DNA of 64,000 nucleotides from an uncultured Gammaproteobacteria bacterium (GTDB taxonomy: Bacteria; Patescibacteriota; Microgenomatia; Woykebacterales; RBG-16-39-9b). The DNA lies in NCBI GenBank assembly GCA_965231125.1, contig OZ246414.1, positions 17,739-81,738 on the forward strand, given 5' to 3'. A model generated the notes under the pieces. That model saw only the letters and a program-made list of their open reading frames with translations, did no database searches and was not told the origin of the DNA. Below are positions 4,367 to 61,094 of the stretch, in pieces. Position numbers and translations under genes: made by a program. Position 1 is the first letter of the stretch, and every line of letters starts with the position of its first letter.

Positions 4367-5503
4367 TTAGCCTGTCGCCCAACAGTAGCTGTCCGCCCCG
4401 TTTAGTGGAGGCGAGGTCGTCCTGGGGCCCATGATACAGTTAAGCACGACAGGGTAGTGCCTCAAGGCGACACCGCTGACACTGAAGACGCCAATCTGCC
4501 CGTTACTCTTGGCGCTCACCTCTTTGTGTCCCGGTATTCTGGTGTAAGCAGGAACGCCGTCTTGGCTTTCCAAACCGTAGAGACCGATCGAACTGAAAGG
4601 CCGATCGGAGCAGTCGTGATTGACTGTCACTCCATCGTAGAAGTTGCTGTCCGGACCATCGAAGTAGTCCCAACGACAGTTCATCTTGTACGAAAGCAAC
4701 GTTACTTCCGCCCAGGTAACATTCCAACAGTAGCCGCCAAAAGGTGTGCACACCCGAGTGACGAAAGGCCAGACGATTTTGTACTCCGCGGTGCCGGCGG
4801 CACTATACCAAGCCCCTGGGTCCTCCGGCGGCGGCCCACAGCTTGTGCAGATCGACGCTGCTTCGCCATACTGGCTCCAGCTAACGACCTGAACATCGTT
4901 GATTTGGCCGGAGGCGTTTCGGTAGAGGACGCAGCCGGTGAACGATGGGTCAACGCTGGCAGCTTCTGCAACTGAGTTGTTGCAGGTTTTCAGCACGTCT
5001 ATTTGGATACGGACCGGCTGGCAACCGTGGTTGTACTGTTGGCCCATCAACACCAAGTCCTGGACGTTGATCCTACCGTCAGGTGGGCCAAGGTTCCAAG
5101 GGTTCGGGCCAAGCGGGGTCCGGTCGTACTCGGTCGAGTAACCAGACTGGCCTTGGTACTGCCCGAAGTGATAAACGACAGTAAGGATGTCCGCCACAGT
5201 GTTCTTGCCGCTGTGCGTCGGGTTCCACCAGTCCCAAGGATTTGTCGGGTCTCGACGGCCGCCCTCCTTTTGTTTCGGACCCAGTTCAAGCCGGTCTGGA
5301 CAACCATCGCCATCCGTATCCGGCGCCGTGTACTCAATGGTTGACGGGCCAGTATAGGTTGAGACAGACGGAGTTGGTGGGCTGAAATCGCTTGTCGGGG
5401 TTGACTCGGTTGTTGGTGTCGGTGTTTCTGCTTGAACCCCATTGGTGCCTGCGAGCCCTGCTATCATCAAGATAGCAAGCAGTAGGGTAATACGAAGTCG
5501 CAT
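4367..5503 (-). CDS. secreted Cys-rich protein with dockerin-like / DxDxDG calcium-binding repeats
   Basis: N-terminal signal peptide MRLRITLLLAILMIAGLAGTNGVQA. Contains DTDGDGCPD and DGRINVQDLVLMGQQY dockerin-like half-repeats, and many Cys. Confidence 0.6.
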   Translation of the reverse strand: MRLRITLLLAILMIAGLAGTNGVQAETPTPTTESTPTSDFSPPTPSVSTYTGPSTIEYTAPDTDGDGCPDRLELGPKQKEGGRRDPTNPWDWWNPTHSGKNTVADILTVVYHFGQYQGQSGYSTEYDRTPLGPNPWNLGPPDGRINVQDLVLMGQQYNHGCQPVRIQIDVLKTCNNSVAEAASVDPSFTGCVLYRNASGQINDVQVVSWSQYGEAASICTSCGPPPEDPGAWYSAAGTAEYKIVWPFVTRVCTPFGGYCWNVTWAEVTLLSYKMNCRWDYFDGPDSNFYDGVTVNHDCSDRPFSSIGLYGLESQDGVPAYTRIPGHKEVSAKSNGQIGVFSVSGVALRHYPVVLNCIMGPRTTSPPLNGADSYCWATG

Positions 5504-5624
5504 TTTCGAACCTCCGTTCGTGTCGTTTTGATCAGGATGGTTTTCTTATCAAGTTGTAGTGTGCAAAATGAAACCCTCCCTCAACGAGAAAGCTCCGACC
5601 CCCTCCTTAGAGCCAGGCAAGAAC

Positions 5625-6281
5625 CTACGCACAAGAGCCTCCAGGACTCTTACCGTAGATGGTGTCTGACTGAATGGTCTTGGCCGAAACTGTGGTCAGA
5701 GCTCGGCCGGCCAGGATCCCACTGAATAAGGCAGGTTGAACCGTCTCCTCGCTGATAGCAGTACCAGCTGCGTCGCCTACCTCACCGCAAGTATTGGCAG
5801 CCTCCCACGTCCAGTTAGCTGTTATCGGTGTGTTTGCCGTGAAACTGGTAACCGGCTCGTTTCGATCTCCGTCGCCGTCCGTATCGTCGAAGTCACGAAC
5901 TTCTATAGTCACTGGAAGCACTGCTTCCAAACCGATTGAGCCCTGGCTGATTTGAAGCCAGTTACTGTCAGAAATGTCTTTCTTGCCTTTAAAACTCCAG
6001 ACCGTCTGACACCCATACTCTTCACAGCGAGTGAGTTTCCCTTCGACACTGGCGATATCTTGGATTTGGGCTCCGGTCGCACTACTCGAGCGGATCAAGC
6101 GTGTAACTTGGACTGATCCCTCAGTCACCAGATTCGTTGTGTGTGTAATTGTGAAAAAGCCAGTCGCTCCCTCAGTTGTGGTACGAGACCATCCGTTGTC
6201 TCCACTCGTTGCAAAGACATTCGCAACAGTGAAGACAAGTAGAGCTAAAACTGTCATCAACGACAATGCTATTTTTTTCAT
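5625..6281 (-). CDS. secreted protein, paralogue family A (CxExxCxTxWxF + DxDGDGD motifs); true start taken as the internal ATG at 6281
   Basis: Signal peptide MKKIALSLMTVLALLVF after an AAAGGAGGAG RBS. Motifs TRCEEYGCQTVWSF and DFDDTDGDGDRNE are shared with the 44016..44729 ORF. Confidence 0.6.
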   Translation of the reverse strand: MKKIALSLMTVLALLVFTVANVFATSGDNGWSRTTTEGATGFFTITHTTNLVTEGSVQVTRLIRSSSATGAQIQDIASVEGKLTRCEEYGCQTVWSFKGKKDISDSNWLQISQGSIGLEAVLPVTIEVRDFDDTDGDGDRNEPVTSFTANTPITANWTWEAANTCGEVGDAAGTAISEETVQPALFSGILAGRALTTVSAKTIQSDTIYGKSPGGSCA

Positions 6282-6348
6282 TTGTCTCCTCCTTTTTTGG
6301 AATATATTGGCGGTTATCTTTCTCCTGAACAGATTTCTTTCGTTTAAA

Positions 6349-6480
6349 GCTTTAGTGTTATACACGCAAGCTTCTTTAGACTTTAGAGCGTAGCTCGCAA
6401 GTCTCGAAGAACTTTAGTGCGTCAGCACGCAAGTCTTGGGGAGCTTTAGCGCGTTAGCGCGCAAATCTCGGAGAGATTTA
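6349..6480. repeat. tandem array of 4-5 degenerate ~31-nt units, each CTTTAG + short hairpin + (GC)AAGTCTYG
   Basis: Unit hairpins are GTGT/ACAC, GAGC/GCTC, GTGC/GCAC and GCGCG/CGCGC. The sequences differ but the pairing is preserved. It lies in the divergent region between the secreted-protein gene and clpB. Confidence 0.6.
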
Positions 6481-6654
6481 TAGCACTTTTTACACCATTT
6501 GTCAAACTTAGAATAAAAAATTATCGGTTTTGTATGAAAAATTAGAAAAAATTTATCCACTCCTATAGTTTCCCCTGGAAATAAATCTATAGGTTGGGGC
6601 ACTTTTACATTTTGCCAACTTGTTCATTCTGTAGGAAATTTTAGCAGAAGGGTA

Positions 6655-15739: not shown

Positions 15740-17897
15740 AAGGTTTCATCTCTCCCCAATTTTTACCAAGCTTCATCTCAACAACGAGAGGAACAGAAAG
15801 GGGAAAGGCTGTCTCCATAATGTTTTTTACCACGGCCGCAGCCTCTTTTAACTCACTCTCAGGAACTTCAAAAACTAATTCATCATGAACTTGCAAAATC
15901 ATTTTTGTTTTTAAACTTTTTACTTTTAACTTTTTACTTAATTCGACCATCGCCTTTTTAATAATATCGGCCGCGGTTCCTTGAATTGGAGAGTTGACGG
16001 CAATTCGCTCGCCTCCCTTGCGCACAATTTGATTGTTACTGCGAAGTTCCAAAACGTAGCGCTTGAACCCGCCTAAAGTAGTCACGAAACCGTTTTCGTA
16101 GGCTTCCCTTAGTACCGCACCAATCCAATCTGAAACTTGCGGAAACCGGGCGAAGTAGCGGTCGATTATTTCTTTAGCTTCTGCCGGCGAATTTTTAAGT
16201 TGCTGGGAAAGGCCAAACGGCGAAATGCCGTACATTATGCCAAAGTTAATTATTTTCGCGACTCGTCTGTCTTCCTTTGTAACCTCGCTTGGCTTTTTCC
16301 CAAGGATGGATGCCGCCGCCTCTGTGTGAATATCTTCGCCTTCCTCAAAAATCCTTTTGAGTTCCCTGTCCCCGCTTATATGCGCCATAACGCGCAGTTC
16401 TATTTGGTTGTAATCTCCCGAAAGTAAAACGCTGCCTTTCGGGGCAATAAAGGCGGCGCGGACTTTTTCGCCCCAGCCACCTCGAGCCGGAATATTTTGC
16501 AAATTGGGATCTTTTGAGGAAAGCCGGCCGGTACGAGCAATATCCGTGTGATAATGGGTGTGAACCCGACTGTCGGGCCCAATTTGGGCTGGCAAAGCAT
16601 CTACGTAGGTAGATTTTAGTTTAAAAAGCTCGCGGTATTGCAGAATTAAATCTATCACTGGATGCGCACCAACAAGAGACGATAAAGTCGCCTGATCCGT
16701 AGACTTGTGAGTTTTGATGCGAGTCGACCTTTCCGGAACAAGGTTTAACTCTTCATAAAGAACTTCTGAAAGTTGGCGTGGGGAGTTGAGATTAAATTCG
16801 TGACCAACTTCCTTATAGATTTGCTTTTCTAATTGAGAAAGCTTATTATTAATATCTTCCGATAACTGCGCCAGTTTTTTCTGGTCAAGCAACACGCCGT
16901 AGTTCTCCATTTCCCGAAGAACTTTTTCCAAATCGAAATTAACCCCCGTTTCCTCCTCTTTCTGTTTTTCAAACAAACCGGCCTGATCTTTGTTCTCGAT
17001 AGTTTGATAGCTCGATAGTTTCTCCTTCTCAACACCCGGAAGTTTATTTATCAGTGACTTAAATTCTAGCGCTTGAAAAAGCTTCACTGCTTCGGCTTTA
17101 TCATAATCGTGCAAAACGCACTTATTTAAATCCAGTTTTATTGGCGCATTAACATCTATAGTAGAGAGTCTTTTTGACATAACGGCTGCCTCGGCATCTG
17201 CCTCTAGTAGCTTGCGGGTCCTTTCTGGGATTTTGGCAAGGTTTTTGTAAATTTCTTCGACCGAACCAAACTCTTTCACTAGCTTCACTGCGCCAACGTC
17301 CCCAATTCCCCGAACCCCTGGGATATTATCTGAGGCATCTCCTGCCAAAGCTTTAACATCAATAAGTTTTTGGGGAGCAAGACCGTATTTCTCCTCGACA
17401 ATTTTTGAGTCGTAATAGACTACATCGGCAAAACTTTTCCCCGGAGTGTAAATTTTTACGTTTGGCCTAACAAGTTGAAGTGTATCGCGATCTCCCGTGA
17501 CAATTAGTACCTCCAAATCTTTAACACCATTTTCCGTTGCTTGTTTGACCAAAGTGCCAATAATATCGTCTGCTTCATAACCGGCAAGTTCAAAAACAGG
17601 AATATTCAGTACCGAAAGAACTTCCTTTACTCTGGGCATTTGTTCATGAAGCTCTTCAGGCGCTGCGCCCCTTTGGGCTTTATAGGCTGTATATTCTTGG
17701 TGGCGAAAAGTGGGTTCAGCGGTGTCAAAAGTAACCGCAATGTAGGCTGGTTTAACATCGGCAATTGCTCGCAGTAACATGCTTGTGAAGCCAAAAACCG
17801 CGTTGACCAGCTCGCCCTTGGAAGTTGTCAGTGGAGGCATAGCGTGATAAGCACGATGAAAAACCGCGTGCCCGTCTACCAACATTAATTTTGCCAT
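15708..17897 (-). CDS. polA: DNA polymerase I, with 5'-3' exonuclease and polymerase domains and no recognisable 3'-5' exonuclease domain
   Basis: 729 aa. The N-terminal FEN-like domain and the C-terminal family A polymerase motifs (e.g. YGISPFGLS, QVHDELVFE) are both present. Confidence 0.9.
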   Translation of the reverse strand: MAKLMLVDGHAVFHRAYHAMPPLTTSKGELVNAVFGFTSMLLRAIADVKPAYIAVTFDTAEPTFRHQEYTAYKAQRGAAPEELHEQMPRVKEVLSVLNIPVFELAGYEADDIIGTLVKQATENGVKDLEVLIVTGDRDTLQLVRPNVKIYTPGKSFADVVYYDSKIVEEKYGLAPQKLIDVKALAGDASDNIPGVRGIGDVGAVKLVKEFGSVEEIYKNLAKIPERTRKLLEADAEAAVMSKRLSTIDVNAPIKLDLNKCVLHDYDKAEAVKLFQALEFKSLINKLPGVEKEKLSSYQTIENKDQAGLFEKQKEEETGVNFDLEKVLREMENYGVLLDQKKLAQLSEDINNKLSQLEKQIYKEVGHEFNLNSPRQLSEVLYEELNLVPERSTRIKTHKSTDQATLSSLVGAHPVIDLILQYRELFKLKSTYVDALPAQIGPDSRVHTHYHTDIARTGRLSSKDPNLQNIPARGGWGEKVRAAFIAPKGSVLLSGDYNQIELRVMAHISGDRELKRIFEEGEDIHTEAAASILGKKPSEVTKEDRRVAKIINFGIMYGISPFGLSQQLKNSPAEAKEIIDRYFARFPQVSDWIGAVLREAYENGFVTTLGGFKRYVLELRSNNQIVRKGGERIAVNSPIQGTAADIIKKAMVELSKKLKVKSLKTKMILQVHDELVFEVPESELKEAAAVVKNIMETAFPLSVPLVVEMKLGKNWGEMKPYAGTTRSRNY

Positions 17898-17948: not shown

Positions 17949-19871
17949 CTAACTTTTGACGTCTTTATCGGGAGATGTGGTCTCAACTTTAATTTCTGAC
18001 TCTTCCTTAGGCTCTTCTATTTGCTCTTTTACCTGGTGGAGTTTCTCCCCCCTCGTTACAATTTCTTCAAACTCGGCACCTTCTAAGGTTTCCTTTTTGA
18101 TTAATTCGGCTGCCACAAGATCTAACTTTTCTTTGTTTTCCCGAAGGATTTTTTTGGCTTTATCGAAACATTCATCGATTATTCTTTTAACTTCGTCGTC
18201 TACTTTTGCTGCCAAATGTTCTGAAAGTGGTTTTGGGTCTCCAAGTTCTCGGGCCAACCAAGGGTTCTCTCCTGGAGCGCCCATGGTTAATGGGCCCAAA
18301 GAGCTCATACCGAATTCCGTCACCATTTTTCTGGCAATTTCGGTGGCTCTCGAAATGTCAGAACTTGCCCCAACCGTGAATTCATTAAACTCAATTTCTT
18401 CGGCAGCCCTACCACCAAGAAGCGATGTTATGGTTTCCAAAAGCCTTGTCTTTGTTTCGTTGTAGCGGTCTTGTGAAGGCGGGATAAGGGTATGACCGCC
18501 GGTGCCTCCACGGGCCACAATTGATATCCGGTGAACCGGATCCATGTTAGGAAGCATTTTCGTTACTAAACCGTGCCCGGCTTCATGGTAGGCGGTTATT
18601 TTCTTTTCTTCCTCGGAAGTCATTCTTTTTCTTTCTGGCCCAAGTTGAACTTTGGTAGCAGCTTCTTCCAAATCTTTATTTCCCACCTGTTTTTTACCAT
18701 CTCTTGCGGCTAAAATCGCTGCCTCGTTTAACATGTTCTCCAAGTCGGCTCCAGAAAAACCGACAGTCCGGCGGGCTAGACTTTCAATATCAACACCTGC
18801 CTCCAGTGGTTTATTTTTTGAGTGAATCTTAATAATTGACTTGCGACCTTCAATGTCGGGCAAATCCAATGTAACTCGGCGATCGAAACGCCCTGGGCGC
18901 ACCAGTGCAGGGTCCAACATATCCGGCCGGTTTGTAGCCGCCATAACAATTATATTAATATTCGGCTCAAAGCCATCCATCTCGACTAAAATTTGGTTTA
19001 AAGTCTGTTCCCTCTCGTCGTGACCACCACCAATCCCGAGACCCCGTTGCCGACCTATCGAATCAATTTCATCAATAAATATTATGGCCGGTGAAGATTT
19101 TTTTGCATTATCGAATAAATCTCTTACGCGAGACGCGCCGACTCCCACCAACATTTCCATAAATTCACTGCCGGCAATTGAGAAGAAAGGAACATTGGCT
19201 TCTCCCGCAACTGCCCGAGCTAGAAGTGTCTTACCCACACCAGAAGGCCCAACTAATAAAGCTCCTTTGGGAATCTTTGCTCCAAGCGCGCGATACTTTT
19301 CCGGGCTCTTTAAAAAATCCACCACTTCAGTAAGTTCCCTTTTAGCTTCATCAACACCAGCAACATCAGAAAATGTGGTTTTTGGATTATCGCGGTTGAA
19401 AAGCTTCGCTCGGCTTCTTGAAAAGGAAAGAATGTTATCCCCTGCATTCCTTGCTTGACGAAGAAAAAAGAAGAAAAATCCAGCTAGAAGAAGTATTGGC
19501 AAGAATATATTCAAAAGACCAAATACCGTATCTCTGGTAGAGGTATCTTTGTTGTTGATAGCTACCTTTGCTGGATCTATACCGGAGGCTTTAAGGGTCT
19601 GGGTAAAAACTTCGTTTTGCTGAAGCCGAGATTTTATAGTGCTTCCATCTTTCAATTTTGCCTCAACGTTCACACCATCAATGGCGACAGAATCTACATT
19701 ACCATCTTTTATCTGCGTGAGAATATCGCTTTCTGGCTTTTGTACAGATTGTCCCCGTGGAGAAAGAAAACTAAAGATAAGAAAAGAGGCGACTATGATT
19801 AGAAGAACATAGAAAGGTATGCTTCCAAAAAACCCTTTTTTTGATTTTTGTAATTTTGGTGCTTCAGGCAT
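17949..19871 (-). CDS. ftsH: ATP-dependent zinc metalloprotease FtsH
   Basis: N-terminal TM segments, the AAA Walker A GPSGVGKT, and the zinc motif HEAGHGLV. Confidence 0.95.
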
Positions 19872-19883
19872 AAGTTAGTAATA

Positions 19884-19947
19884 GGATCCTCCGTAACCAA
19901 ATCCAAGTGATTTGGGTACTCTCGGATCCTGCGTCTTTCAGACTAAA
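19884..19947. repeat. dispersed intergenic element R1, copy 1 (modules A TCCGTAACCAAATCCAAGTGATT, B GGGTACTCTCG, C CTGCGTCTTTCAGACTA)
   Basis: Module A is identical over 23 nt to 52926..52948. The module C hairpin GTCT/AGAC is replaced by GTCC/GGAC in copy 2. Confidence 0.5.
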
Positions 19948-19962
19948 GTAAAACGGCCGACT

Positions 19963-20044
19963 GATTTAGTCCCAAGACACAAGATGGCGCGTACGCGCCA
20001 GATTTAGTCCTATGGACGTAATATGGCGCTTCCGCGCCAGATTA
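19963..20044. repeat. two tandem ~41-nt units each ending in a GC-rich hairpin (TGGCGCG-TA-CGCGCCA; TGGCGC-TTCC-GCGCCA) followed by AGATT
   Basis: Direct repeat GATTTAGTCC...ATGGCGC..CGCGCCAGATT occurs twice, between the trpS stop and the ftsH start. Confidence 0.5.
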
Positions 20045-20090
20045 TACCAGATCCATATTTATCGTTCAATGGTATTTATACGAAGGGCAC

Positions 20091-21077
20091 TTAAACTAAC
20101 CGCATTGCTTTTTTGACCATTTCGAGAGTTTCCGCAGCCTCGGCTCGTGCTTTTTCCGTACCCTCTTGCAGAATTTTTCCAACTAACTCACCTTCATTCT
20201 CGAACTTTACTCTTCTTTGTCGGATTGGGTCTAAAAAGTTATTCAGAGCGGCCGTCAATTTTTCTTTCACCTCAACATCCCCAACCGCGCCTTTCTGATA
20301 ACGCTTCTTTAGATCTTCAACTTCATCTTTATTGGGATTGAAAGCGTCGTGATAAATAAAAACCGGGTTTCCTTCAACTTTTCCTGGATCGCTTGGGTGA
20401 ATTCGGGCTGGATCCGTATACATACTCCTCACCTTTTTTTCGACTTCGTCGCTACTATCTGAAAGATAAATCGCGTTGTTAAGTGATTTACTCATTTTCG
20501 CCTTGCCATCGATCCCAGGCAAAACTCCAATTTCTTTTGGAATCAAAGCTTCGGGGATTGGGAAAACTTCACTGTAGGTAGAGTTGAACTTTTCAGCAAG
20601 TTCCCGAGTCAACTCAATGTGACTCGCTTGATCTTTTCCTACTGGAACAAGATTCGCTCTAACCATCAAGATATCAGCTGCTTGCATAACTGGATAAGAA
20701 AGTAGTCCGAGGGACGGGTTTTCAATTTTTAAATCACGCAACATATCTTTGAGAGTTGGAATTCTCTCAAGTCTACTTTTAGAAACCAACATTGATAAGA
20801 TTACGGCGAGTTCTTGATCTTCCGAAATTTCACTTTGCACACAAAAGGTTACTTTTTTAGGGTCGATACCCACCGAAAGTTGATCCAAAACTAAATCTTT
20901 TATATTTTGCTTAATTTGAGAGGTATCGTCACTAGTAGTAAGAGCGTGTAAATCGGCCACCAAAAGAAACACTTCGTATTCGTCTTGAAGTGCTAGTCGA
21001 TTTTTTAGCGAGCCAACAAAGTGGCCTAAATGTAGTTTTCCTGTTGGCCTATCCCCAGTTAAAATTCTTTTTTTCAT
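20091..21077 (-). CDS. trpS: tryptophan--tRNA ligase
   Basis: HIGH-type motif TGDRPTGKLHLGHFVG and the KMSKS motif. Confidence 0.9.
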   Translation of the reverse strand: MKKRILTGDRPTGKLHLGHFVGSLKNRLALQDEYEVFLLVADLHALTTSDDTSQIKQNIKDLVLDQLSVGIDPKKVTFCVQSEISEDQELAVILSMLVSKSRLERIPTLKDMLRDLKIENPSLGLLSYPVMQAADILMVRANLVPVGKDQASHIELTRELAEKFNSTYSEVFPIPEALIPKEIGVLPGIDGKAKMSKSLNNAIYLSDSSDEVEKKVRSMYTDPARIHPSDPGKVEGNPVFIYHDAFNPNKDEVEDLKKRYQKGAVGDVEVKEKLTAALNNFLDPIRQRRVKFENEGELVGKILQEGTEKARAEAAETLEMVKKAMRLV

Positions 21078-21181: not shown

Positions 21182-21751
21182 TTACCAATCCCAGAGCATT
21201 CGCTTCTCCTTTCCAATTTCTACGACATTATGCCAGTTCTCCCCCTCCTGATACCAACCCAGGTTCCTAGTGAAACCACAATGGTTGCAAGTCTCAACTT
21301 TCACACCAGCTGAATGGCTTATCCACCGGATATGGTGCGATCTTTCCCTGTGAGCACAACTCAACTGCTCGAACCGCTTCACCAGTGCCCCATCGATTTC
21401 GGCCCTAGACCCCAAAGCCAAACCGGTGGTAAATGATTCGCGATGACCGGGTAACGAATCTCTTTGCCGGATTAGTTGTCTCCATATTCTGAGTTTATCT
21501 TCCCCAACCATCCTGTTAACTAGCTCGATCGGACCGATCATGGAGTGAACAGCGGTTTTCTCACCGCCTAGTGCCTTCCAAGAGCTATCCATAATCCATT
21601 TCATCTTTTCTCTGAATCGCTGAACTGCCTTCCAAGCAGCAATTTGTGGGTGTCTTGATTTCACTACTTCTGTGTAAACAAGTGTTCCGGGACTCCCTTC
21701 GAATGTCGGAACATCCCAGGTGACTAACCACCAAACCTTTCTTCGACTCAT
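21182..21751 (-). CDS. hypothetical protein with HNH-like Cys/His motif, GC-rich
   Basis: C-terminal CAHRERSHHIRWISHSAGVKVETCNHCG resembles the HNH endonuclease core. This call is tentative. Confidence 0.4.
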   Translation of the reverse strand: MSRRKVWWLVTWDVPTFEGSPGTLVYTEVVKSRHPQIAAWKAVQRFREKMKWIMDSSWKALGGEKTAVHSMIGPIELVNRMVGEDKLRIWRQLIRQRDSLPGHRESFTTGLALGSRAEIDGALVKRFEQLSCAHRERSHHIRWISHSAGVKVETCNHCGFTRNLGWYQEGENWHNVVEIGKEKRMLWDW

Positions 21752-21763
21752 TTTTCTCCTTTC

Positions 21764-22063
21764 TTATGCTCCACACCATCCGGTGTGTCGTGGACCACTG
21801 CAACCGCTGCAGGCAGGTTCCTCATCAAAGCAAAGGCGCAATTCAACCACCCGCCAAAGATACCGAACTAACCATGCGTGGCTGTCGTTAACCTCGTGGA
21901 ATGTCTCGTGTACTTCGCATTCACAGCACACCAAAGTTACTAACGCCCAGGTATTGCCCCAACCACCTCGGGTTCTGTCAAGCAGAACGTGTACTCCAGA
22001 CACTCTTTTGCATTCTGGACGATGTGACAATCTCTCCTGAACATCCGACCTAAACGAGATCAT
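21764..22063 (-). CDS. Cys-rich hypothetical protein with HExxH (HETFH) motif, GC-rich
   Basis: CCECEVHETFHEV. The plus-strand ORF overlapping it translates to low-complexity sequence. Confidence 0.35.
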   Translation of the reverse strand: MISFRSDVQERLSHRPECKRVSGVHVLLDRTRGGWGNTWALVTLVCCECEVHETFHEVNDSHAWLVRYLWRVVELRLCFDEEPACSGCSGPRHTGWCGA

Positions 22064-22080
22064 CTTTCTCCTTTCTTACC

Positions 22081-22437
22081 TCAGAAATTTTTCCTCTTGA
22101 TTAATGCCCTATTCCTACAAGACTTGCAACTGAGCTCGGCGTCGTCTTCCGAAGAAAAGGGTTTATTACCCCTAATCCAAATCAGACGGATATTGCCCGG
22201 ATTCTGGCAGGAATGCTTATGCCAAACCCACCTAAACTGCGGAAGTTTTGGATCCGCAGTCGCGTGACAATTGTCACAGTATCTTGCGTAACCAACAACA
22301 TACACACCATCCCCTACTTTGACCTGCGTTTTGCGATTTAACACAGCCGATCTCCCGCAGGATTTCCTGTGTTTAAATTTCCTCGAAGACGTGCTTCCAA
22401 CCTTCTTTTTCATGACCGAAATCTCCTTTCTTCCCAC
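22081..22437 (-). CDS. Cys/His-rich basic hypothetical protein, GC-rich
   Basis: Lys/Arg-rich N-terminus and the motifs YCDNCH...HKHSCQN...CKSCRN. Confidence 0.35.
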   Translation of the reverse strand: MGRKEISVMKKKVGSTSSRKFKHRKSCGRSAVLNRKTQVKVGDGVYVVGYARYCDNCHATADPKLPQFRWVWHKHSCQNPGNIRLIWIRGNKPFSSEDDAELSCKSCRNRALIKRKNF

Positions 22438-25297: not shown

Positions 25298-25314
25298 AGA
25301 GGGTTTGGTATTCT

Positions 25315-25330
25315 TAAGAGCAGCGGACTC
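25315..25330 (+). repeat. duplicated internal tRNA(CAU) fragment TAAGAGCAGCGGACTC, copy 1
   Basis: It matches positions 21-36 of the tRNA at 25443..25517 (D-stem 3' strand, anticodon stem 5' strand, loop start). A 6-bp hairpin plus TTTT follows. Confidence 0.5.
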
Positions 25331-25417
25331 AAAGGACGCGTTGCGTCCTGTGCTTTTGGAGGCAGCGTAGCTCAGTGGTAGCATGCTTTGCATGCTGCGA
25401 CCTCGCTTTGCGAGGAC

Positions 25418-25433
25418 TAAGAGCAGCGGACTC
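25418..25433 (+). repeat. duplicated internal tRNA(CAU) fragment TAAGAGCAGCGGACTC, copy 2
   Basis: Identical 16-mer, 10 nt upstream of the intact tRNA. Confidence 0.5.
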
Positions 25434-25442
25434 TAGCAATTT

Positions 25443-25517
25443 GCCAGGGTAGCTCAGTGGTAGAGCAGCGGACTCATAAGCCGTTGGTCGGGAGTTCGAA
25501 TCTCCCCCCTGGCACCA
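25443..25517 (+). tRNA. tRNA with CAU anticodon (Met, fMet or Ile2-lysidine type), CCA encoded
   Basis: GCCAGGG-TA-GCTC-AGTGGTA-GAGC-A-GCGGA-CTCATAA-GCCGT-TGGTC-GGGAG-TTCGAAT-CTCCC-CCCTGGC-A-CCA. The cloverleaf is canonical apart from an A31/G39 mismatch. Confidence 0.85.
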
Positions 25518-25603
25518 ATGGGCAAATTGCGCAGCAAGCTGAGCTTGCTTAAAGCCTAGGTCGCAGGTTCGAATCCAGCCGCTGCCGTCACAACCACCAA
25601 ACA

Positions 25604-26452: not shown

Positions 26453-26460
26453 ACCTTAAT

Positions 26461-26524
26461 TATATCGCTTTTGCGATACAAAAGCAGATGCAATCTGCGA
26501 TTTAATCGCTTTTGCGATACAATC
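26461..26524. promoter_or_regulatory. two copies of the palindromic motif TATATCGCTTTTGCGATACAA overlapping a -10-like TATAAT, upstream of the ftsB-like gene
   Basis: The inverted repeat ATCGC-TTTT-GCGAT occurs twice, at 26464..26477 and 26505..26518. The same motif is found upstream of sufD at 39913..39960. Confidence 0.4.
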
Positions 26525-28230: not shown

Positions 28231-28306
28231 GGGCCAGTAGCTCAGCGGTTAGAGCACCACTCTTATAAAGTGGGGGTCCTTGGTTCGAATCCAAGCTGGC
28301 CCACCA
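28231..28306 (+). tRNA. tRNA-Ile with UAU anticodon, CCA encoded
   Basis: GGGCCAG-TA-GCTC-AGCGGTTA-GAGC-A-CCACT-CTTATAA-AGTGG-GGGTC-CTTGG-TTCGAAT-CCAAG-CTGGCCC-A-CCA. Fully canonical cloverleaf. Confidence 0.85.
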
Positions 28307-28371
28307 TTAGGTCTTAATTGACTTGATTACTGTGGCGTTTCTCGGCTTGCGTCCCCTAAAAGCGAGGTTAA

Positions 28372-28398
28372 AAGTGGGGGTCCTTGGTTCGAATCCAT
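28372..28398 (+). repeat. exact 27-nt duplicate of the tRNA-Ile 3' portion (anticodon-stem 3' strand through T-loop), 65 nt downstream of the gene
   Basis: AAAGTGGGGGTCCTTGGTTCGAATCCA is identical to 28268..28294. After CCA it diverges (TCCGAGCTCG). Confidence 0.6.
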
Positions 28399-34282: not shown

Positions 34283-34714
34283 TTATCTTTCAACTTTTAC
34301 TTCCGCTTTAATTAGAGCGTCCTTTAAAACATTTAAACTTAAGAGTGTACAACCGAGTCTGGCTGGTGATGGGTTAATTCCCAACAACCTAAGTATATCA
34401 CCCGTCTCTACCTTCCGGGCTTCTGCTAGAGATTTCCCTTCGATATAACTTGCTAATAGAGAGGCTGATGCTTGGGAAATCGCGCACCCTGTCCCGGAAA
34501 AAACCGCCTTTTTAATTATGTTCTCTGAATTCTTTAGCCCACGAAGTGGTCGCAAAGCGCGAAGCGATTTTATTCTTAATTGCAATTTAATTTCGTCTCC
34601 ACAAAGCTGATTTACTAGCCTAGCCTCTAAATCTGGGTTGGAAATTTCACCCCGGTTTTTGGGGTTTCGCGCTACTTCTAGAATTGTTTGTCGGTAGAGT
34701 TGATCTTCGATCAT
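34283..34714 (-). CDS. sufU: SufU/IscU-like Fe-S scaffold/sulfur-transfer protein
   Basis: The conserved Cys-containing motifs LCGD and GCAIS. Confidence 0.8.
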   Translation of the reverse strand: MIEDQLYRQTILEVARNPKNRGEISNPDLEARLVNQLCGDEIKLQLRIKSLRALRPLRGLKNSENIIKKAVFSGTGCAISQASASLLASYIEGKSLAEARKVETGDILRLLGINPSPARLGCTLLSLNVLKDALIKAEVKVER

Positions 34715-39912: not shown

Positions 39913-39960
39913 GAGGAAAGATTATATCGCTTTAGCGATACAGAATAAAGCGATGTAATC
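39913..39960. promoter_or_regulatory. palindromic motif ATTATATCGCTTTAGCGATACA + AAAGCGATGTAATCGC immediately upstream of sufD
   Basis: It shares ATTATATCGCTTTnGCGATACA...AAAGC.ATGyAATC with 26458..26500. Confidence 0.4.
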
Positions 39961-44015: not shown

Positions 44016-44729
44016 CTAACTGCTAGTGGTCAGGCTCTGGCAGGGGTTTTCCGTCGGGGCGTCGGGCTTGGTCTTGTTTTTGTCCAGCTCGTCGCCTTGA
44101 AAAAGCTGCCCGTAGGTGTCGCTAAAGGAAGTGGCACCAATTTGGCCGTTCACCTTAGCGTCTCGATAGGAACCAGAAACGTTGGTAAGGGTCAGGTTCC
44201 CATAGTCCCAGTTCCAGAAACACCCACCGCCGGGATTGACCGCACCGCTTCCGGTCCAGTCGACGCTGACCGAGATTGGCGCCTGGAACTCAGCGACAAT
44301 TTCGTCGTAGTCGCCGTTCCCATTCGCGTCGGTGAAGTCGTGGACAATAATGTCGGCGGAAACCATGGTGCTCACGTGAGCACCATCGGTACCGTCGAAG
44401 GTCAGCCCTTGCGGCGCCCCATCCGCATAGAACTCCCAGATAGTCCGGCACTCAAATTCTGCGCCGCACCATGTCAGAGCCCCGTACAGACTGACATCGC
44501 TAAACGACGACGTCTCATCACCGACGTTTGAATCAGTCGAGCTCGTCATCGCGTCGACCGACATGTCTGTCCACAGACTGTCGCTGTGGGACAACGTTAG
44601 GTCGACGTGAGCCCCACTCATCTCTGCTGTGCTCACGAGGGCATTGCTGTCCGTCGCAAGCACTTGGGTAGCGGCGAAGACAAGTGCCGATATCGCCACA
44701 ACCAAACCGACCAATCCTTTTCTTACCAA
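44016..44729 (-). CDS. secreted protein, paralogue family A (TTG start)
   Basis: Signal peptide. Motifs WCGAEFECRTIWEF and DFTDANGNGDYDE parallel those of 5625..6281. RBS GGAGGTG. Confidence 0.6.
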   Translation of the reverse strand: MVRKGLVGLVVAISALVFAATQVLATDSNALVSTAEMSGAHVDLTLSHSDSLWTDMSVDAMTSSTDSNVGDETSSFSDVSLYGALTWCGAEFECRTIWEFYADGAPQGLTFDGTDGAHVSTMVSADIIVHDFTDANGNGDYDEIVAEFQAPISVSVDWTGSGAVNPGGGCFWNWDYGNLTLTNVSGSYRDAKVNGQIGATSFSDTYGQLFQGDELDKNKTKPDAPTENPCQSLTTSS

Positions 44730-44872
44730 GTTGCACCTCCTATGCGCTAGCTGTTATCGGATTTTCCGATAAACTAGCTCTATATAATAGCAGATTTGTG
44801 GGAAAAAGTCAAACTATAGGGCTTTCTTTACCAAGAAAGCCCTGCGAACTTCGTTCTAAAGACGCTCTTAGA

Positions 44873-48331: not shown

Positions 48332-48727
48332 CTAAACGACTCTGTAAAGGGCTTGTGTTTCGATTGGCACCGCAACACCGACCTGTAGCGCAATGCCCCC
48401 GACCATCAAACCTTCGACCGTCGGAACGATCTCTAGTCGGGCATGATCTCCCCGCTGAATGCGCAGTATCTCACGGGCGGCGCCGACGTGATCTGCCTCT
48501 GCGATGGACATGCGCATATGGTAGACGTCCACCGGGGTGGATATACTCCTAAAAAGGTGTCTGCGGTCGAGGGTTAGATCTCTCACCAAAGAGACTAGCT
48601 TAAGCCCTCCTTCACCGTAGTGAAATGAAAGAACCTCCCTGCGTTCGCCAGCGTGATCTGCCTCCTCGATGATTGCTGGATTCATCGGCCCAACCAGAAG
48701 CTTGTCGAGACTAACTGGTGTTTGCAT
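48332..48727 (-). CDS. hypothetical protein with internal duplicated IxEADHxG..RE motif, GC-rich
   Basis: IIEEADHAGERREV and IAEADHVGAAREIL. Confidence 0.4.
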   Translation of the reverse strand: MQTPVSLDKLLVGPMNPAIIEEADHAGERREVLSFHYGEGGLKLVSLVRDLTLDRRHLFRSISTPVDVYHMRMSIAEADHVGAAREILRIQRGDHARLEIVPTVEGLMVGGIALQVGVAVPIETQALYRVV

Positions 48728-48791
48728 GACATCCCTCCTTCTGCAGATTTTTAAGGGACTATATCAAAAATAAACCTAAATGTCAAACTAT

Positions 48792-48884
48792 AGGGCGCTC
48801 GTAGCTTATGCCTTTTCGCGCTACTCAAAGCCAGCTACTGCGCGTCCTGCGCTAGGCGTCTTAACGCCTAGCTAAGTGTACATG
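48792..48884. repeat. dispersed ~93-nt structured element R2, copy 1
   Basis: About 88% identical to 60978..61071. It has an outer helix GTAGCT/AGCTAC and a terminal 8-bp hairpin GCTAGGCG-TCTTAA-CGCCTAGC. Confidence 0.6.
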
Positions 48885-52916: not shown

Positions 52917-53016
52917 ATAGATCGCTCCGTAACCAAATCCAAGTGATTAAGATCGCTAAAGCGTTCTGCGTCCTTCGGACTAGGGTACTCTCGCGCTCTG
53001 CGACCGCTCTGCGGTC
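52917..53016. repeat. dispersed intergenic element R1, copy 2 (modules A, C, B rearranged relative to copy 1)
   Basis: TCCGTAACCAAATCCAAGTGATT is identical. Hairpin GTCC-ttcg-GGAC replaces GTCT-ttca-AGAC. The 7-nt direct repeat AGATCGC flanks module A. Confidence 0.5.
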
Positions 53017-53529
53017 TATTGTAGCCTAAATTACAATTCGCAAGTAATTTTCCTCACCAACCAAAAGTAATTTCTCTCACTGATATTTGGTCGGAGTTCC
53101 TTTAAATTAAGGATGAAAGGTACTCCGGTCCCTTAGGGGGCTGGAGAAGGAGAAGAGGGTTAGTGAGTTTGCCGATAGGGGGTAGGGACCGGGAGCTGCC
53201 GAGCCCAAAGAGGCAGCACACACAAATCTAAGGGCGGAGGGTAAGTCACCGGGAAAGTACAATGTACCAACTACTCCGTTGTAAACCCGCTAACACCTCT
53301 TCACCAGAGAGACGCCGTCCAACAGGACAGAAAGGAAGACGAAAATTCCATGCTGTCGACTAACAATCGACACAAAGACGAGCCGGCGTATAACAAGACG
53401 CACTCGTCGTAGAGCGGCTGAACTGTTTGTTCCTAGGCAAAGGAACAAATAGTGAAGCCGCTCTCTGTCGTTTTAAGCGAGCCCTCGGAGATTTACTTTA
53501 ACTTGGCTACCAGTTAAAATAATTCCCAA
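53017..53529. ncRNA. GC-rich ORF-free region with dense nested hairpins: candidate structured non-coding RNA, family and strand unresolved
   Basis: No ORF of 60 aa or more in any frame. Helices include GAGCGGCT..TTTGTTCC-N8-GGAACAAA..AGCCGCTC, GACGAG-N20-CTCGTC, GTCGA-N7-TCGAC, GGTCCCT-N57-AGGGACC and GCTGCC-N12-GGCAGC. Confidence 0.3.
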
Positions 53530-54241: not shown

Positions 54242-54520
54242 TTAGGTCGCCACGGGCTGATGGCGGCGAGCGTACTTGCCAGCGGCCAAGGTAAGGAGCT
54301 CAATTTCCTGCTCCACATCGTTGGGAAGACCGAGAATGGCAGGCACTTTCCGCTCTTTCATAATCGCCAGCTTTACCGCTGATGAGGCGAGCTTCCTGGC
54401 TAAATCGGCGAACTTTTCCGGTGCTGTCCCCTTTCCCTGCTCGGCCTCCACGCGCATCCGAATGCTGTCTTGGACTCGCAGAAAGGCTTCGTCCCACCAT
54501 TGATCATAGTTGACCTGCAT
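54242..54520 (-). CDS. hypothetical protein (92 aa), GC-rich, third gene of a 3-gene small operon
   Basis: Strong RBS AAGGAGGAGAGGAG. Confidence 0.45.
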   Translation of the reverse strand: MQVNYDQWWDEAFLRVQDSIRMRVEAEQGKGTAPEKFADLARKLASSAVKLAIMKERKVPAILGLPNDVEQEIELLTLAAGKYARRHQPVAT

Positions 54521-54547
54521 GGTAACTCCTCTCCTCCTTACGTTGTC

Positions 54548-54778
54548 TCAGCCGACCGTTACTGTTTCCCCGTTCAACATCCGATGGGCTTTGTCGTAGT
54601 TTTCCTCGTTCGTCAGGTTGCCGATGTTTTCTCGAGTGATCTGGAAGCAATTATCTTCCCCGCACTCTGGGCAAAGGACGAGATCTTCTCCCGCAAGCCC
54701 ATCAAAGTCCTCGGGTCTTCCTACGAACCCACACCCACCGTATGTCGTTGAACAGATGAGTACGGTTTGTCCTGGCAT
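54548..54778 (-). CDS. hypothetical zinc-ribbon protein (76 aa), GC-rich
   Basis: RBS AAAGGAGGAG. Cys pairs CSTTYGGCG...CPECGEDNC. Confidence 0.45.
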   Translation of the reverse strand: MPGQTVLICSTTYGGCGFVGRPEDFDGLAGEDLVLCPECGEDNCFQITRENIGNLTNEENYDKAHRMLNGETVTVG

Positions 54779-60977: not shown

Positions 60978-61071
60978 GTCAATGCTATAAGCCGCTCGTA
61001 GCTTGTGCCTTCTCGTGCTACTCAAATCCAGCTACTGCGCGTCCTGCGCTAGGCGTCTTAACGCCTAGCTA
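60978..61071. repeat. dispersed ~94-nt structured element R2, copy 2
   Basis: See copy 1. The substitutions fall between the helices, and the terminal hairpin is identical. Confidence 0.6.
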
Positions 61072-61094
61072 GGGTTAAACGTCAAGCTTGGTGA

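What the first reader, a model, noticed from the sequence alone, without database searches (positions are those of the whole stretch)
19884..19947. Modular intergenic element R1 with a compensatory hairpin change and module shuffling; second copy at 52917..53016
A 23-nt core TCCGTAACCAAATCCAAGTGATT is identical at the two loci. Two further modules, GGGTACTCTCG and CTGCGTCyTTCrGACTA, are present at both but in a different order (A-B-C versus A-C-B). The hairpin in module C carries a double compensatory change (GTCT-ttca-AGAC versus GTCC-ttcg-GGAC), which argues for selection on RNA or DNA secondary structure. In copy 2 the core is flanked by the 7-nt direct repeat AGATCGC, and in copy 1 by GGATCC. 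That is the kind of flank a MITE target-site duplication would leave. Copy 1 lies immediately upstream of ftsH. Copy 2 starts at the first base after the crp stop codon.
Basis: seen in the sequence. Interest (0 to 1): 0.55.

Follow-up and report, generated by a model that had tools for sequence, protein, structure and literature searches.

The report
Nested mobile hairpin repeats in Woykebacteria
The two "R1" copies belong to a previously undescribed family of very small hairpin-forming DNA repeats found in one group of uncultured bacteria (Candidatus Woykebacteria); the repeats lie between genes, inside one another, and even in frame inside genes, so R1 is most likely selfish mobile DNA rather than a regulator of ftsH or crp.

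Summary
The 23-nt core is exact at 19890 and 52926, and both other modules occur at both loci. The reading as shuffled modules with target-site duplications is wrong in detail. R1 is a composite structure. It has an outer stem P1 (the "GGATCC" flanks are its two arms) and an inner hairpin P2 (core plus module B). These are followed by TGC, a small hairpin P3 (module C) and TAAAG. Copy 2 carries a complete 34-nt minimal unit nested in the loop of P2, which explains the A-C-B order and the AGATCGC repeat.

The minimal unit is TA-[P1]-YTGC-[P3]-TAAAG. It recurs about 12 times in the window: four in tandem, one in frame inside sufU, and two in tRNA gene fragments. I counted 37 loci in 362 kb of Woykebacteria DNA and essentially none in 1.08 Mb of other genomes. 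The stems covary strongly.

Orthologous trpS-ftsH and crp-downstream sites in related species are empty. Other sites hold 0, 1, 2 or 4 units depending on the species. Orientation is random relative to genes and GC skew.

Best explanation: a lineage-specific, non-autonomous mobile hairpin repeat, resembling RPE, REP and MITE elements. The mobilising enzyme is unknown. No Rfam, phage or plasmid match was found.

The parts
19880..19948 (+). R1 copy 1, complete element. Layout: AATA | P1 5' arm GGATCC (19884-19889) | TCC | P2 hairpin GTAACCAAATC-CAAGT-GATTTGGGTAC (19893-19919) | TCTC | P1 3' arm GGATCC (19924-19929) | TGC | P3 GTCT-TTC-AGAC (19933-19943) | TAAAG
   Evidence: Sequence. Fold of -23.3 kcal/mol, z = -3.65. 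CM R1 score 100 bits.
52917..53018 (+). R1 copy 2, outer element. Layout: ATA | P1 GATCGC (52920-52925) | TCC | P2 5' part (52929-52948) | nested unit | P2 3' part GGGTAC (52983-52988) | TCTC | P1 3' arm GCGCTC (52993-52998) | TGC | P3 GACCGC-TCT-GCGGTC (53002-53016) | TA
   Evidence: The outer P1 and the base of P2 are retained in the minimum-free-energy fold. The orthologous site in L095 and L096 lacks the whole block.
52949..52982 (+). Minimal unit nested in the loop of P2 of copy 2.
   Evidence: (R2 score 28 bits). It has the same architecture as the free-standing minimal units.
19964..20046 (-). Two degenerate tandem units in the ftsH leader, on the opposite strand to R1. Each has a TGGCGCG-loop-GCGCCA hairpin, then GTCC-ATA-GGAC or GTC-TTG-GGAC, then TAAAT
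   Evidence: 14.7 bits; 13.4 bits. These are weak matches and were assigned by architecture.
20041..20069 (-). Sigma-70-type promoter of ftsH: TTGAAC-17-TATAAT with an upstream TG
   Evidence: Equivalent promoters sit in the much shorter trpS-ftsH spacers of three relatives.
6348..6482 (-). Four tandem units of about 32 nt, following promoter TTGACA-17-TATAAA (6505-6477), in the 5' region of a secreted-protein gene
25330..25422 (+). Two minimal units embedded in tRNA-Met gene fragments. One lies directly after GGTAG of a D-loop (25377-25422)
   Evidence: 37 bits.
34532..34573 (-). Minimal unit inside the sufU coding sequence, in frame (encodes KSLRALRPLRGLK)
   Evidence: 45.6 bits.
44815..44861 (+). 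Minimal unit with a long P1 (GGGCTTTCTT/AAGAAAGCCC), lying between two minus-strand genes
48789..48876 (+). R1b element. It has the same architecture, but P2 is of the GTAGCT...AGCTAC type
   Evidence: (D3).
60986..61073 (+). Second R1b element, 88% identical to the one at 48789
   Evidence: (D3).

Best explanation
R1 is a composite member of a lineage-specific family of very small, hairpin-forming dispersed DNA repeats in Candidatus Woykebacteria. The basic unit is 36-45 nt: TA, hairpin P1 (variable sequence), YTGC, hairpin P3 (G-NNN-loop-NNN-C), then TA-A/G-A/G. R1-type elements carry a further hairpin, P2 (GTA...TAC, followed by TCTC), inside the loop of P1. Copy 2 has in addition a whole basic unit inside the loop of P2.

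I propose that the family spreads at the DNA level as a non-autonomous mobile element. It inserts at TA-containing sites, usually directly 3' of a T-W-T-A-G-like sequence. Stop codons often supply such a site, and the element's own 3' end (CTAAAG) recreates one, which would explain tandem arrays and nesting. The hairpins, rather than their sequences, would be what a trans-acting enzyme recognises. That enzyme has not been identified.

Shown here:
- the family and its architecture;
- stem covariation;
- presence and absence at orthologous sites;
- hot spots with variable copy number;
- nesting;
- in-frame insertion into coding sequence in both orientations;
- lack of strand bias;
- restriction to this lineage.

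Inferred:
- the exact target site;
- a requirement for a trans-acting recombinase or transposase;
- that effects on host transcripts are by-products. An example is the placing of the GGAGGA upstream of ftsH in a stem.
For: Architecture and copies:
-.

Covariation:
- P3 alone is 97% paired, with 3 of 4 pairs changed on both sides and 0 of 500 shuffles as good.
- 26 minimal units are 83% paired, with 9 of 10 pairs changed on both sides.
- 14 R1-type elements are 93% paired, with 16 of 21 pairs changed on both sides.

Empty orthologous sites:
- The trpS-ftsH spacer is 44, 73 and 95 nt in three relatives, consisting of a promoter and a short leader only. It is 219 nt in the window.
- The block after the crp stop codon is absent in L095 and L096, while the downstream sequence is conserved.

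Hot spots:
- The xer-divIC spacer holds 0 units (window), 1 (L092), 4 (L093) or an R1b element (L007), always after a conserved TTGTCAAGAGACTAT(A/G)G.
- The sufU loop holds 0, 1 or 2 units in frame.

Insertions into genes:
- A second coding insertion, in the opposite orientation, lies in a Pyr_redox gene of L005. The orthologs in the window and in L089 lack it.
- A unit lies inside a tRNA D-loop.

Orientation and distribution:
- Orientation against local GC skew is 19:18. Against neighbouring genes it is 12 sense to 5 antisense among the 17 loci scored.
- G.T pairs number 6 and A.C pairs 8, so no transcribed-strand signature is seen.
- Matches occur only in Woykebacteria-like loci (362 kb). 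There are none with E < 0.1 in 1.08 Mb of other genomes.
- Short-read contigs break inside both R1 copies.

No known family:
- No Rfam match.
- No phage or plasmid match.
Against: - No transposase or recombinase that could move the elements was found. Orphan ORFs of the window have no Y1 or DDE transposase domain, and none appears in the precomputed Pfam lists of the related loci.
- No clean target-site duplication can be demonstrated. The tRNA case fits 'insertion 3' of TAG' better than a TA duplication.
- P2 is identical over 31 nt between copy 1 and the L004 copy, while P1 and P3 differ by compensated changes. This looks like selection on the P2 sequence, or gene conversion, rather than neutral decay of copies.
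- The unit in sufU is more conserved between two species (about 92%) than the flanking coding DNA (about 73%, counted by eye).
- The lack of orientation bias argues against an IS200/IS605-type single-strand mechanism.
- Only 362 kb of the lineage was sampled, and the whole 915-kb genome could not be scanned.
- The covariation alignments were fitted to the models.
Confidence: 0.62

Rival explanations
1. The elements are functional RNA modules. They would be stem-loops placed at 5' ends, 3' ends or between cistrons. There they would stabilise mRNA, direct RNase processing or modulate translation, and a protein would recognise the conserved single-stranded UGC and UAAAG.
For: - The stems covary while the short linkers are conserved.
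- Many copies sit tightly between a stop codon and the next start codon in the sense orientation.
- A four-unit array directly follows a strong promoter.
- Both strands of copy 1 fold well.
- P2 sequence is conserved among R1 copies.
Against: - Orientation is random with respect to GC skew, and about one third of copies are antisense to their neighbouring genes.
- Copies occur in frame inside coding sequences in both orientations and inside tRNA gene fragments.
- Orthologous sites in relatives are empty.
- There is no excess of G.U over A.C pairs.
- At locus 6482 the predicted start of transcription falls inside P1.
Confidence: 0.17
2. The elements are recombination sites, folded-hairpin substrates comparable to integron attC sites or to elements that exploit Xer. 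They would be handled by the Xer-like tyrosine recombinase encoded next to one hot spot.
For: - The spacer next to the 290-aa Phage_integrase-family gene holds 0, 1 or 4 units, or an R1b element, in four species.
- Structure is conserved while sequence varies, and some mismatches are conserved: T.C in P1 and A.G in P3.
Against: - There are no attC R''/R' boxes (RYYYAAC / GTTRRRY).
- Each unit has two hairpins instead of one.
- Units carry no cassettes.
- Most copies lie far from the recombinase gene.
- No dif-like 28-bp site was recognised at the hot spot (by eye).
Confidence: 0.08
3. The elements are promoter-plus-leader cassettes. TATAG or TATAA would act as a -10 box (or a phage-type ACTATAG start site) and P1 would form the 5' stem-loop of the transcript.
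For: - TATAAA at 6482 has a perfect TTGACA 17 nt upstream.
- L006 13619 directly follows TTGACT-17-TATACT.
- Several copies are preceded by GTCAA..AC-TATAG.
Against: - Most copies have no -35 element at the right distance.
- Genuine ftsH promoters in four species are ordinary TTGACx-17-TAxAAT sites.
- Copies occur inside coding sequences, antisense to genes, and in tandem.
Confidence: 0.06
4. The tandem units are guide-RNA arrays of the TIGR or CRISPR kind.
For: - There are tandem units of about 32 nt with conserved and variable parts behind a promoter.
- TIGR systems occur in parasitic bacteria and include stem-loop arrays (PMC12045711).
Against: - The period is 27-33 nt, not 36 nt.
- The variable parts are 3-6-nt self-complementary stems, not 9-nt spacers.
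- There are no box C (CCA) or box D (UG) pairs in register.
- The adjacent genes encode a secreted protein and ClpB, and the orphan ORFs scanned matched no Pfam family that would mark a Tas protein.
- Most copies are solitary.
Confidence: 0.02
5. The two copies are a chance or one-off local duplication with no family behind it.
For: Only two copies carry the exact core in the window, and the exact 20-mer is absent from 185,579 representative genomes and from viral contigs.
Against: - A third copy exists in another metagenome contig.
- Covariance-model homologs exist in at least 8 other contigs.
- 0 matches are expected by chance.
Confidence: 0.01

Closest known systems
Rickettsia palindromic elements (RPE)
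   Same: Both are small palindromic repeats of an obligately host-associated, small-genome lineage. They are found between genes, in RNA genes, and in frame inside conserved protein-coding genes, with no identified transposase (review PMC10969869). Here the equivalents are sufU, the Pyr_redox gene and the tRNA fragments.
   Different: RPEs are about 100-150 bp and encode a conserved peptide. These units are 27-45 nt (70-105 nt when composite) and have only about 15 conserved bases. They have two separate small hairpins and often occur nested or in tandem. There is no sequence similarity.
REP / BIME / REPIN elements with RAYT transposases (own knowledge)
   Same: Both are short imperfect palindromes with a conserved short head sequence, compensated stems, clustering into mosaics and an extragenic preference. 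They are presumed to be mobilised in trans.
   Different: REPs are single hairpins whose stem sequence is conserved within a genome. They are not found in coding sequence. They are associated with a RAYT gene, and none was seen here. In this family the stems differ between copies of one genome.
Correia / NEMIS elements of Neisseria and other TA-targeting bacterial MITEs
   Same: Both are flanked by TA, and Correia ends also start with TATAG (own knowledge). Both can carry promoter-like -10 boxes and form hairpins in transcripts (PMC10969869).
   Different: Correia elements are 100-155 bp with 26-bp terminal inverted repeats and a clear TA duplication. Here the terminal symmetry is only TA-G...C-TA, and a duplication cannot be shown.
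Pneumococcal BOX / RUP / SPRITE repeats
   Same: Both are built from modules (boxA, a variable number of boxB, boxC). Both form clusters and insert into one another (PMC10969869 citing Croucher 2011).
   Different: BOX modules have conserved sequences of 45-60 nt. In this family the modules are defined by structure plus 3-6-nt linkers.
IS200/IS605-derived palindrome-associated elements (own knowledge)
   Same: Both have sub-terminal hairpins, insert 3' of a specific 4-5-nt sequence without duplication, and have a right end that resembles the target.
   Different: Those elements show strong strand (replication) bias. Here orientation is 19:18, and no TnpA gene was seen.

Membership tests
MITE (miniature inverted-repeat transposable element) | Terminal inverted repeats of roughly 10 bp or more | tested here: not met
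   The ends share only TA-G ... C-TA. The longer 'repeats' are internal stems P1 and P3.
MITE (miniature inverted-repeat transposable element) | Target-site duplication flanking each copy | tested here: inconclusive
TA precedes P1 and follows P3 in nearly all copies. The tRNA D-loop case needs an extra base under a TA-duplication model.
MITE (miniature inverted-repeat transposable element) | Multiple dispersed copies with presence/absence polymorphism at orthologous sites | tested here: met
   37 loci in 362 kb. Empty orthologous sites in relatives. Copy number varies at hot spots.
MITE (miniature inverted-repeat transposable element) | A related autonomous element or transposase in the same genomes | tested here: inconclusive
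   None was found in the window's orphan ORFs or in the Pfam lists of fetched loci. Whole genomes could not be scanned.
Rickettsia palindromic elements (as a kind: in-frame selfish palindromes) | In-frame insertion into conserved protein-coding genes that leaves the gene intact | tested here: met
   sufU carries 36-39 nt in the window and L088, 2 x 27 nt in L085, and none in L005, L008, L012 and L013. A Pyr_redox gene of L005 has 12 extra codons that the orthologs in the window and in L089 lack.
Rickettsia palindromic elements (as a kind: in-frame selfish palindromes) | Sequence homology to an RPE family, and occurrence in Rickettsia | tested here: not met
   The host is a CPR bacterium (names). 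No Rfam match at E <= 10.
REP/REPIN-RAYT | Single imperfect palindrome with a conserved stem sequence and tetranucleotide head; extragenic only | tested here: not met
   Each unit has two hairpins, stems differ between copies, and copies occur in coding sequence.
REP/REPIN-RAYT | RAYT (Y1 HUH) gene flanked by the repeats | not testable with these tools
   Only 64 kb of the roughly 915-kb genome is available. None was seen in it.
TIGR arrays (PMC12045711) | 36-nt period with alternating edge and loop repeats, box C/D motifs and two roughly 9-nt spacers | tested here: not met
   The period is 27-33 nt. The variable parts are self-complementary 3-6-nt stems (compared).
TIGR arrays (PMC12045711) | Adjacent Tas gene with a Nop domain | tested here: not met
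   The neighbours of the arrays are a secreted-protein gene and ClpB in the window, and xer and divIC in L093. The window's orphan ORFs that were scanned matched no Pfam family that would mark a Tas protein.
Integron attC sites | R''/L''...L'/R' boxes (RYYYAAC ... GTTRRRY) in a single imperfect hairpin 3' of a cassette ORF | tested here: not met
   These boxes are absent from the aligned copies. Each unit has two hairpins.
Any Rfam RNA family | Covariance-model match | tested here: not met
   No match at gathering score in the window. Only chance-level microRNA and lncRNA matches at E <= 10 at the two loci.

The most novel reading that the evidence does not exclude
The family is a new class of structure-defined mobile element. 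It would be a roughly 40-nt two-hairpin unit with almost no fixed sequence that is recognised and moved through its folded form. It would preferentially land in TA sites, including the loops of other copies, which produces Russian-doll composites such as R1. It can be carried in frame by essential genes of a minimal-genome CPR bacterium. A host enzyme, for example the Xer-like recombinase next to one hot spot, may mobilise it rather than a dedicated transposase. The strictly conserved P2 of R1 may have been co-opted for a cellular function.
Probability: 0.2. Interest if true: 0.75.

Novelty: new variant of a known kind. Interest (0 to 1): 0.5.

Why it matters
CPR (Patescibacteria) genomes are small and streamlined, and the library searches run here turned up no description of dispersed repeats in them. 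My searches found no description of MITE, REP or RPE-like families in this lineage.

A family of roughly 40-nt hairpin units would be relevant in four ways:
- It changes spacer lengths and adds stem-loops to leaders (for example ftsH).
- It splits tRNA genes.
- It adds 9-14 residues to conserved proteins such as SufU.
- It breaks short-read assemblies.

These effects bear on the annotation of these genomes, on how protein insertions typical of CPR arise, and on the minimal requirements for a mobile DNA. The family also provides strain-level markers.

Tried and rejected
- **Rfam.** Searches at gathering score and at E <= 10 found nothing relevant.
- **Exact searches with the core.** A 20-mer search gave 0 hits in GTDB representative genomes and 0 in viral contigs. 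The exact 23-nt core gave one extra contig among JGI metagenome contigs.
- **Type III toxin-antitoxin (ToxI-like array).** I considered this for the four-unit array. The downstream gene encodes a signal-peptide protein, not a ToxN-like nuclease.
- **TIGR-Tas arrays.** Rejected on period, spacers and the absence of a Tas gene.
- **Group II intron domains V-VI.** A resemblance of CCGUA...GUAC was considered, but there is no Rfam Intron_gpII match.
- **CRP/FNR operator in the core.** There is no palindrome of the TGTGA-N6-TCACA type (by eye).
- **Replication-strand bias expected for IS200/IS605-like elements.** Not found; orientation is 19:18.
- **RNA-strand signature (G.U versus A.C).** Not found; 6 versus 8.
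- **Module-C-only model (R2).** It found no further copies in the window beyond those used to build it and almost none in distant relatives. The broader model R3 was needed.
- **False positive.** The weak R3 match inside polA (17647-17683) coincides with a conserved PolA motif and is treated as a false positive.
- **Phage and plasmid databases.** No match.

Full report
**The observation.** The 23-nt core occurs exactly twice in the window, at 19890-19912 and 52926-52948. No match is expected by chance even with three mismatches. Modules B and C are each present at both loci. The order is A-B-C in copy 1 and A-C-B in copy 2.

- Copy 1 lies in the 219-nt spacer between trpS (stop at 20091) and ftsH (ATG at 19871). 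Both genes are on the minus strand, so the element as written is antisense to them.
- Copy 2 begins right after the TAG of a Crp/Fnr-family gene (Pfam).

**Anatomy of R1.** Folding shows that the "modules" are parts of one structure.

- In copy 1, the two GGATCC flanks pair with each other to form P1.
- Core plus module B form an inner hairpin P2: GUA-A-CCAAAUC [CAAGU] GAUUUGG-G-UAC. P2 is separated from P1 by UCC on one side and UCUC on the other.
- Module C is a small following hairpin P3 (GUCU-uuc-AGAC), flanked by UGC and UAAAG.
- The fold has an energy of -23.3 kcal/mol and z = -3.65.

A third copy was found in a JGI metagenome contig (L004). It has an identical P2, but GAATTC/GAATTC in place of GGATCC/GGATCC, and GTCC-tta-GGGC in P3. 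Those are two compensated pairs in P1. The flanks are therefore stem arms, not target-site duplications.

In copy 2, the outer P1 is GATCGC/GCGCTC and the base of P2 is retained. A 34-nt block sits in the P2 loop: AAGATCGC-TAAA-GCGTTC-TGC-GTCC-TTC-GGAC-TA. This block is itself a complete small unit with its own P1' and P3'. The outer element's own P3 is GACCGC-tct-GCGGTC at 53002-53016. This nesting explains both the apparent reordering of modules and the AGATCGC "direct repeat".

**A wider family.** A covariance model of R1 found shorter relatives in the window that lack P2. From these I defined a minimal unit: TA, P1, YTGC, P3 (G-NNN-loop-NNN-C), TAAAG.

Members in the window:
- four tandem units of about 32 nt at 6348-6482 (minus strand), behind the promoter TTGACA-17-TATAAA;
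- one unit at 44815-44861;
- one unit inside sufU at 34532-34573;
- two units within tRNA-Met gene fragments at 25330-25422;
- two R1b elements with a different P2 (GTAGCT...AGCTAC) at 48789-48876 and 60986-61073;
- two degenerate units on the minus strand of the ftsH leader.

**Covariation.**

| Set | Cells paired | Pairs changed on both sides | Shuffles as good |
|---|---|---|---|
| P3 stem, 9 copies | 97% | 3 of 4 | 0 of 500 |
| 26 minimal units aligned to model R3 | 83% | 9 of 10 | 0 of 500 (cells paired; covariation score) |
| 14 R1-type elements | 93% | 16 of 21 | 0 of 500 |

The last two alignments are fitted to the models, which inflates these figures somewhat. The slid-partner controls are far lower (25-49% paired).

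**Organism and relatives.** SufU, TrpRS and Crp homologs named by their sources are Candidatus Woykebacteria, a CPR lineage. The exact proteins lie on a 915-kb NCBI contig. The genome is not among the GTDB representatives; the best SufU identity there is 64%.

The R1 model finds full R1-type elements in other Woykebacteria contigs: L085, L006 (x2), L008, L007 (x2), L005, L009, L093 and L095. Their P1 arms differ but remain complementary: GGCAACC/GGTTGC, GCACGC/GCGTGC, GGACGC/GCGTCC. GTA...TAC-TCTC and CTGCG are conserved.

Model R3 finds minimal units only in Woykebacteria-like loci. Together with the R1 matches I count 37 loci in 362 kb. There is no match with E < 0.1 in 1.08 Mb of loci from other phyla fetched by the same SufU query.

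**Tests of mobility.**

1. *trpS-ftsH spacer.* The orthologous spacer in three relatives (TrpRS 76-79% identical) is 44, 73 and 95 nt. It holds only a sigma-70-type promoter and a short leader. The window has the equivalent promoter, followed by about 170 nt made up of family elements.
2. *Downstream of crp.* Relatives L095 and L096 have a 9-11-nt T-rich spacer and then a conserved noncoding region. The window has the roughly 100-nt R1 copy 2 in between.
3. *xer-divIC spacer.* This spacer carries a conserved TTGTCAAGAGACTAT(A/G)G. It is followed by no unit in the window, one in L092, four tandem units in L093 and an R1b element in L007.
4. *sufU loop.* The loop between LQLK and IxKAVFSGNGC varies by 0-28 residues among homologs. 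The DNA shows one unit in the window and in L088, two 27-nt units in L085, one in L089, and none in L005, L008, L012 and L013. All are in frame.
5. *A coding insertion in the opposite orientation.* A unit in the opposite orientation adds 12 codons after MKQV of a Pyr_redox protein in L005. The orthologs in the window and in L089 lack it.
6. *tRNA D-loop.* A unit sits exactly between GGTAG and AGCAGC of a tRNA D-loop.
7. *Assembly breaks.* Logan short-read contigs end inside both R1 copies.

**Strand and orientation.** Across the 37 loci, the element strand is the C-rich strand 19 times and the G-rich strand 18 times. Among the 17 loci scored against neighbouring genes, 12 were sense and 5 antisense. 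G.T pairs (6) are no more frequent than A.C pairs (8) in the stems.

This argues against a strand-specific RNA role. It also argues against an IS200/IS605-like mechanism, which would give a replication-strand bias. Recurrent mismatches (T.C in ATCGC/GCGCT and A.G in GACCAC/GTGGGC) are conserved within subfamilies.

**Mechanism.** I conclude that R1 is a nested composite of a lineage-specific, non-autonomous mobile hairpin repeat.

All copies have TA immediately outside P1 and P3, and most follow a T-W-T-A-G-like sequence. Stop codons and the element's own CTAAAG end provide such sites. This accounts for copies starting at stop codons, for tandem arrays and for nesting.

Whether TA is duplicated, or insertion is 3' of TAG without duplication, could not be settled. 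The tRNA case favours the latter. No candidate enzyme was found in the window.

Effects on hosts are inferred by-products. In the ftsH mRNA, the reverse complement of R1 folds equally well (-25.1 kcal/mol) and puts a GGAGGA, 16 nt upstream of the ATG, into P1.

**Points that do not fit neutral junk.**
- P2 is invariant over 31 nt between copy 1 and L004, while P1 and P3 differ by compensated changes.
- The sufU unit is better conserved between two species than the surrounding codons.

Either gene conversion among copies or selection on the element would explain this.

**Comparison with known systems.** The closest kinds are Rickettsia palindromic elements (in-frame selfish palindromes), REP/BIME mosaics, Correia and other TA-flanked MITEs, and pneumococcal BOX/RUP/SPRITE repeats, which also insert into one another (PMC10969869). 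This family differs in four ways:
- the size of the unit (27-45 nt);
- definition by structure plus only about 15 fixed bases;
- two distinct hairpins per unit;
- nesting in hairpin loops.

TIGR arrays (PMC12045711), type III antitoxin arrays, attC sites, group II intron domains and Rfam families were all tested and do not fit. Searches for Woykebacteria, for CPR palindromic repeats and for Patescibacteria MITEs found no prior description.

**Verdict.** This is a real, new family of a known general kind, of moderate interest.

Noticed in passing
window 53020-53500 (+); L095 7827-8312; L096 10655-11145: A noncoding region of about 450 nt downstream of the crp-like gene is conserved in three Woykebacteria contigs, even though the next gene differs. 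It has no Rfam match. RNAalifold predicts a long-range helix (GGGGAAGAUCAGCGAGU / ACUCGCUGA.CCUCCCC) with compensatory GC-to-AU changes. It is a candidate unnamed structured RNA.
   Followed up: partly
window 25300-25600: The tRNA-Met cluster contains tRNA gene fragments interleaved with hairpin units. The 5' part (GGCAGCGTAGCTCAGTGGTAG...) and 3' part (...GGTTCGAATCCAGCCGCTGCC) of one tRNA-like gene are separated by an intact tRNA-Met (25443-25517). That tRNA-Met is bracketed by a 10-bp inverted repeat, GCAATTTGCC/GGCAAATTGC.
   Followed up: partly
window 28231-28306 and 28371-28397: tRNA-Ile with anticodon UAU has its 3' 27 nt repeated 104 nt downstream. This resembles an attachment-site scar of an integrated element.
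   Followed up: no
window 26459-26483, 26500-26524, 39921-39945: Another small hairpin repeat, ATTATATCGC-TTTT-GCGATACAAAA, occurs in three copies. Two of them lie in the xer-divIC spacer.
   Followed up: no
window 4367-6284, 21182-22437, 44016-44729, 48332-48727, 54242-54778: GC-rich islands (51-55% G+C against about 42% elsewhere) carry orphan ORFs without significant Pfam matches. Two of the ORFs have signal peptides. They may be acquired DNA.
   Followed up: partly
SufU homologs (alignment A5), region between LQLK and IxKAVFSGNGC: Some Woykebacteria SufU proteins carry other, longer inserts at the same loop (for example TANRLQTTAKKKERKTVVRSPNA). These do not look like the unit described here, so the loop is a general insertion hot spot.
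   Followed up: no
L093 2868-4268: A relative carries a diversity-generating-retroelement-like pair (bAvd plus reverse transcriptase) next to the xer gene and the four-unit array.
   Followed up: no
L001, L003, L098 (Logan SRR6155503 contigs): Public short-read contigs of this organism terminate inside both R1 copies, showing that these repeats fragment assemblies.
   Followed up: yes
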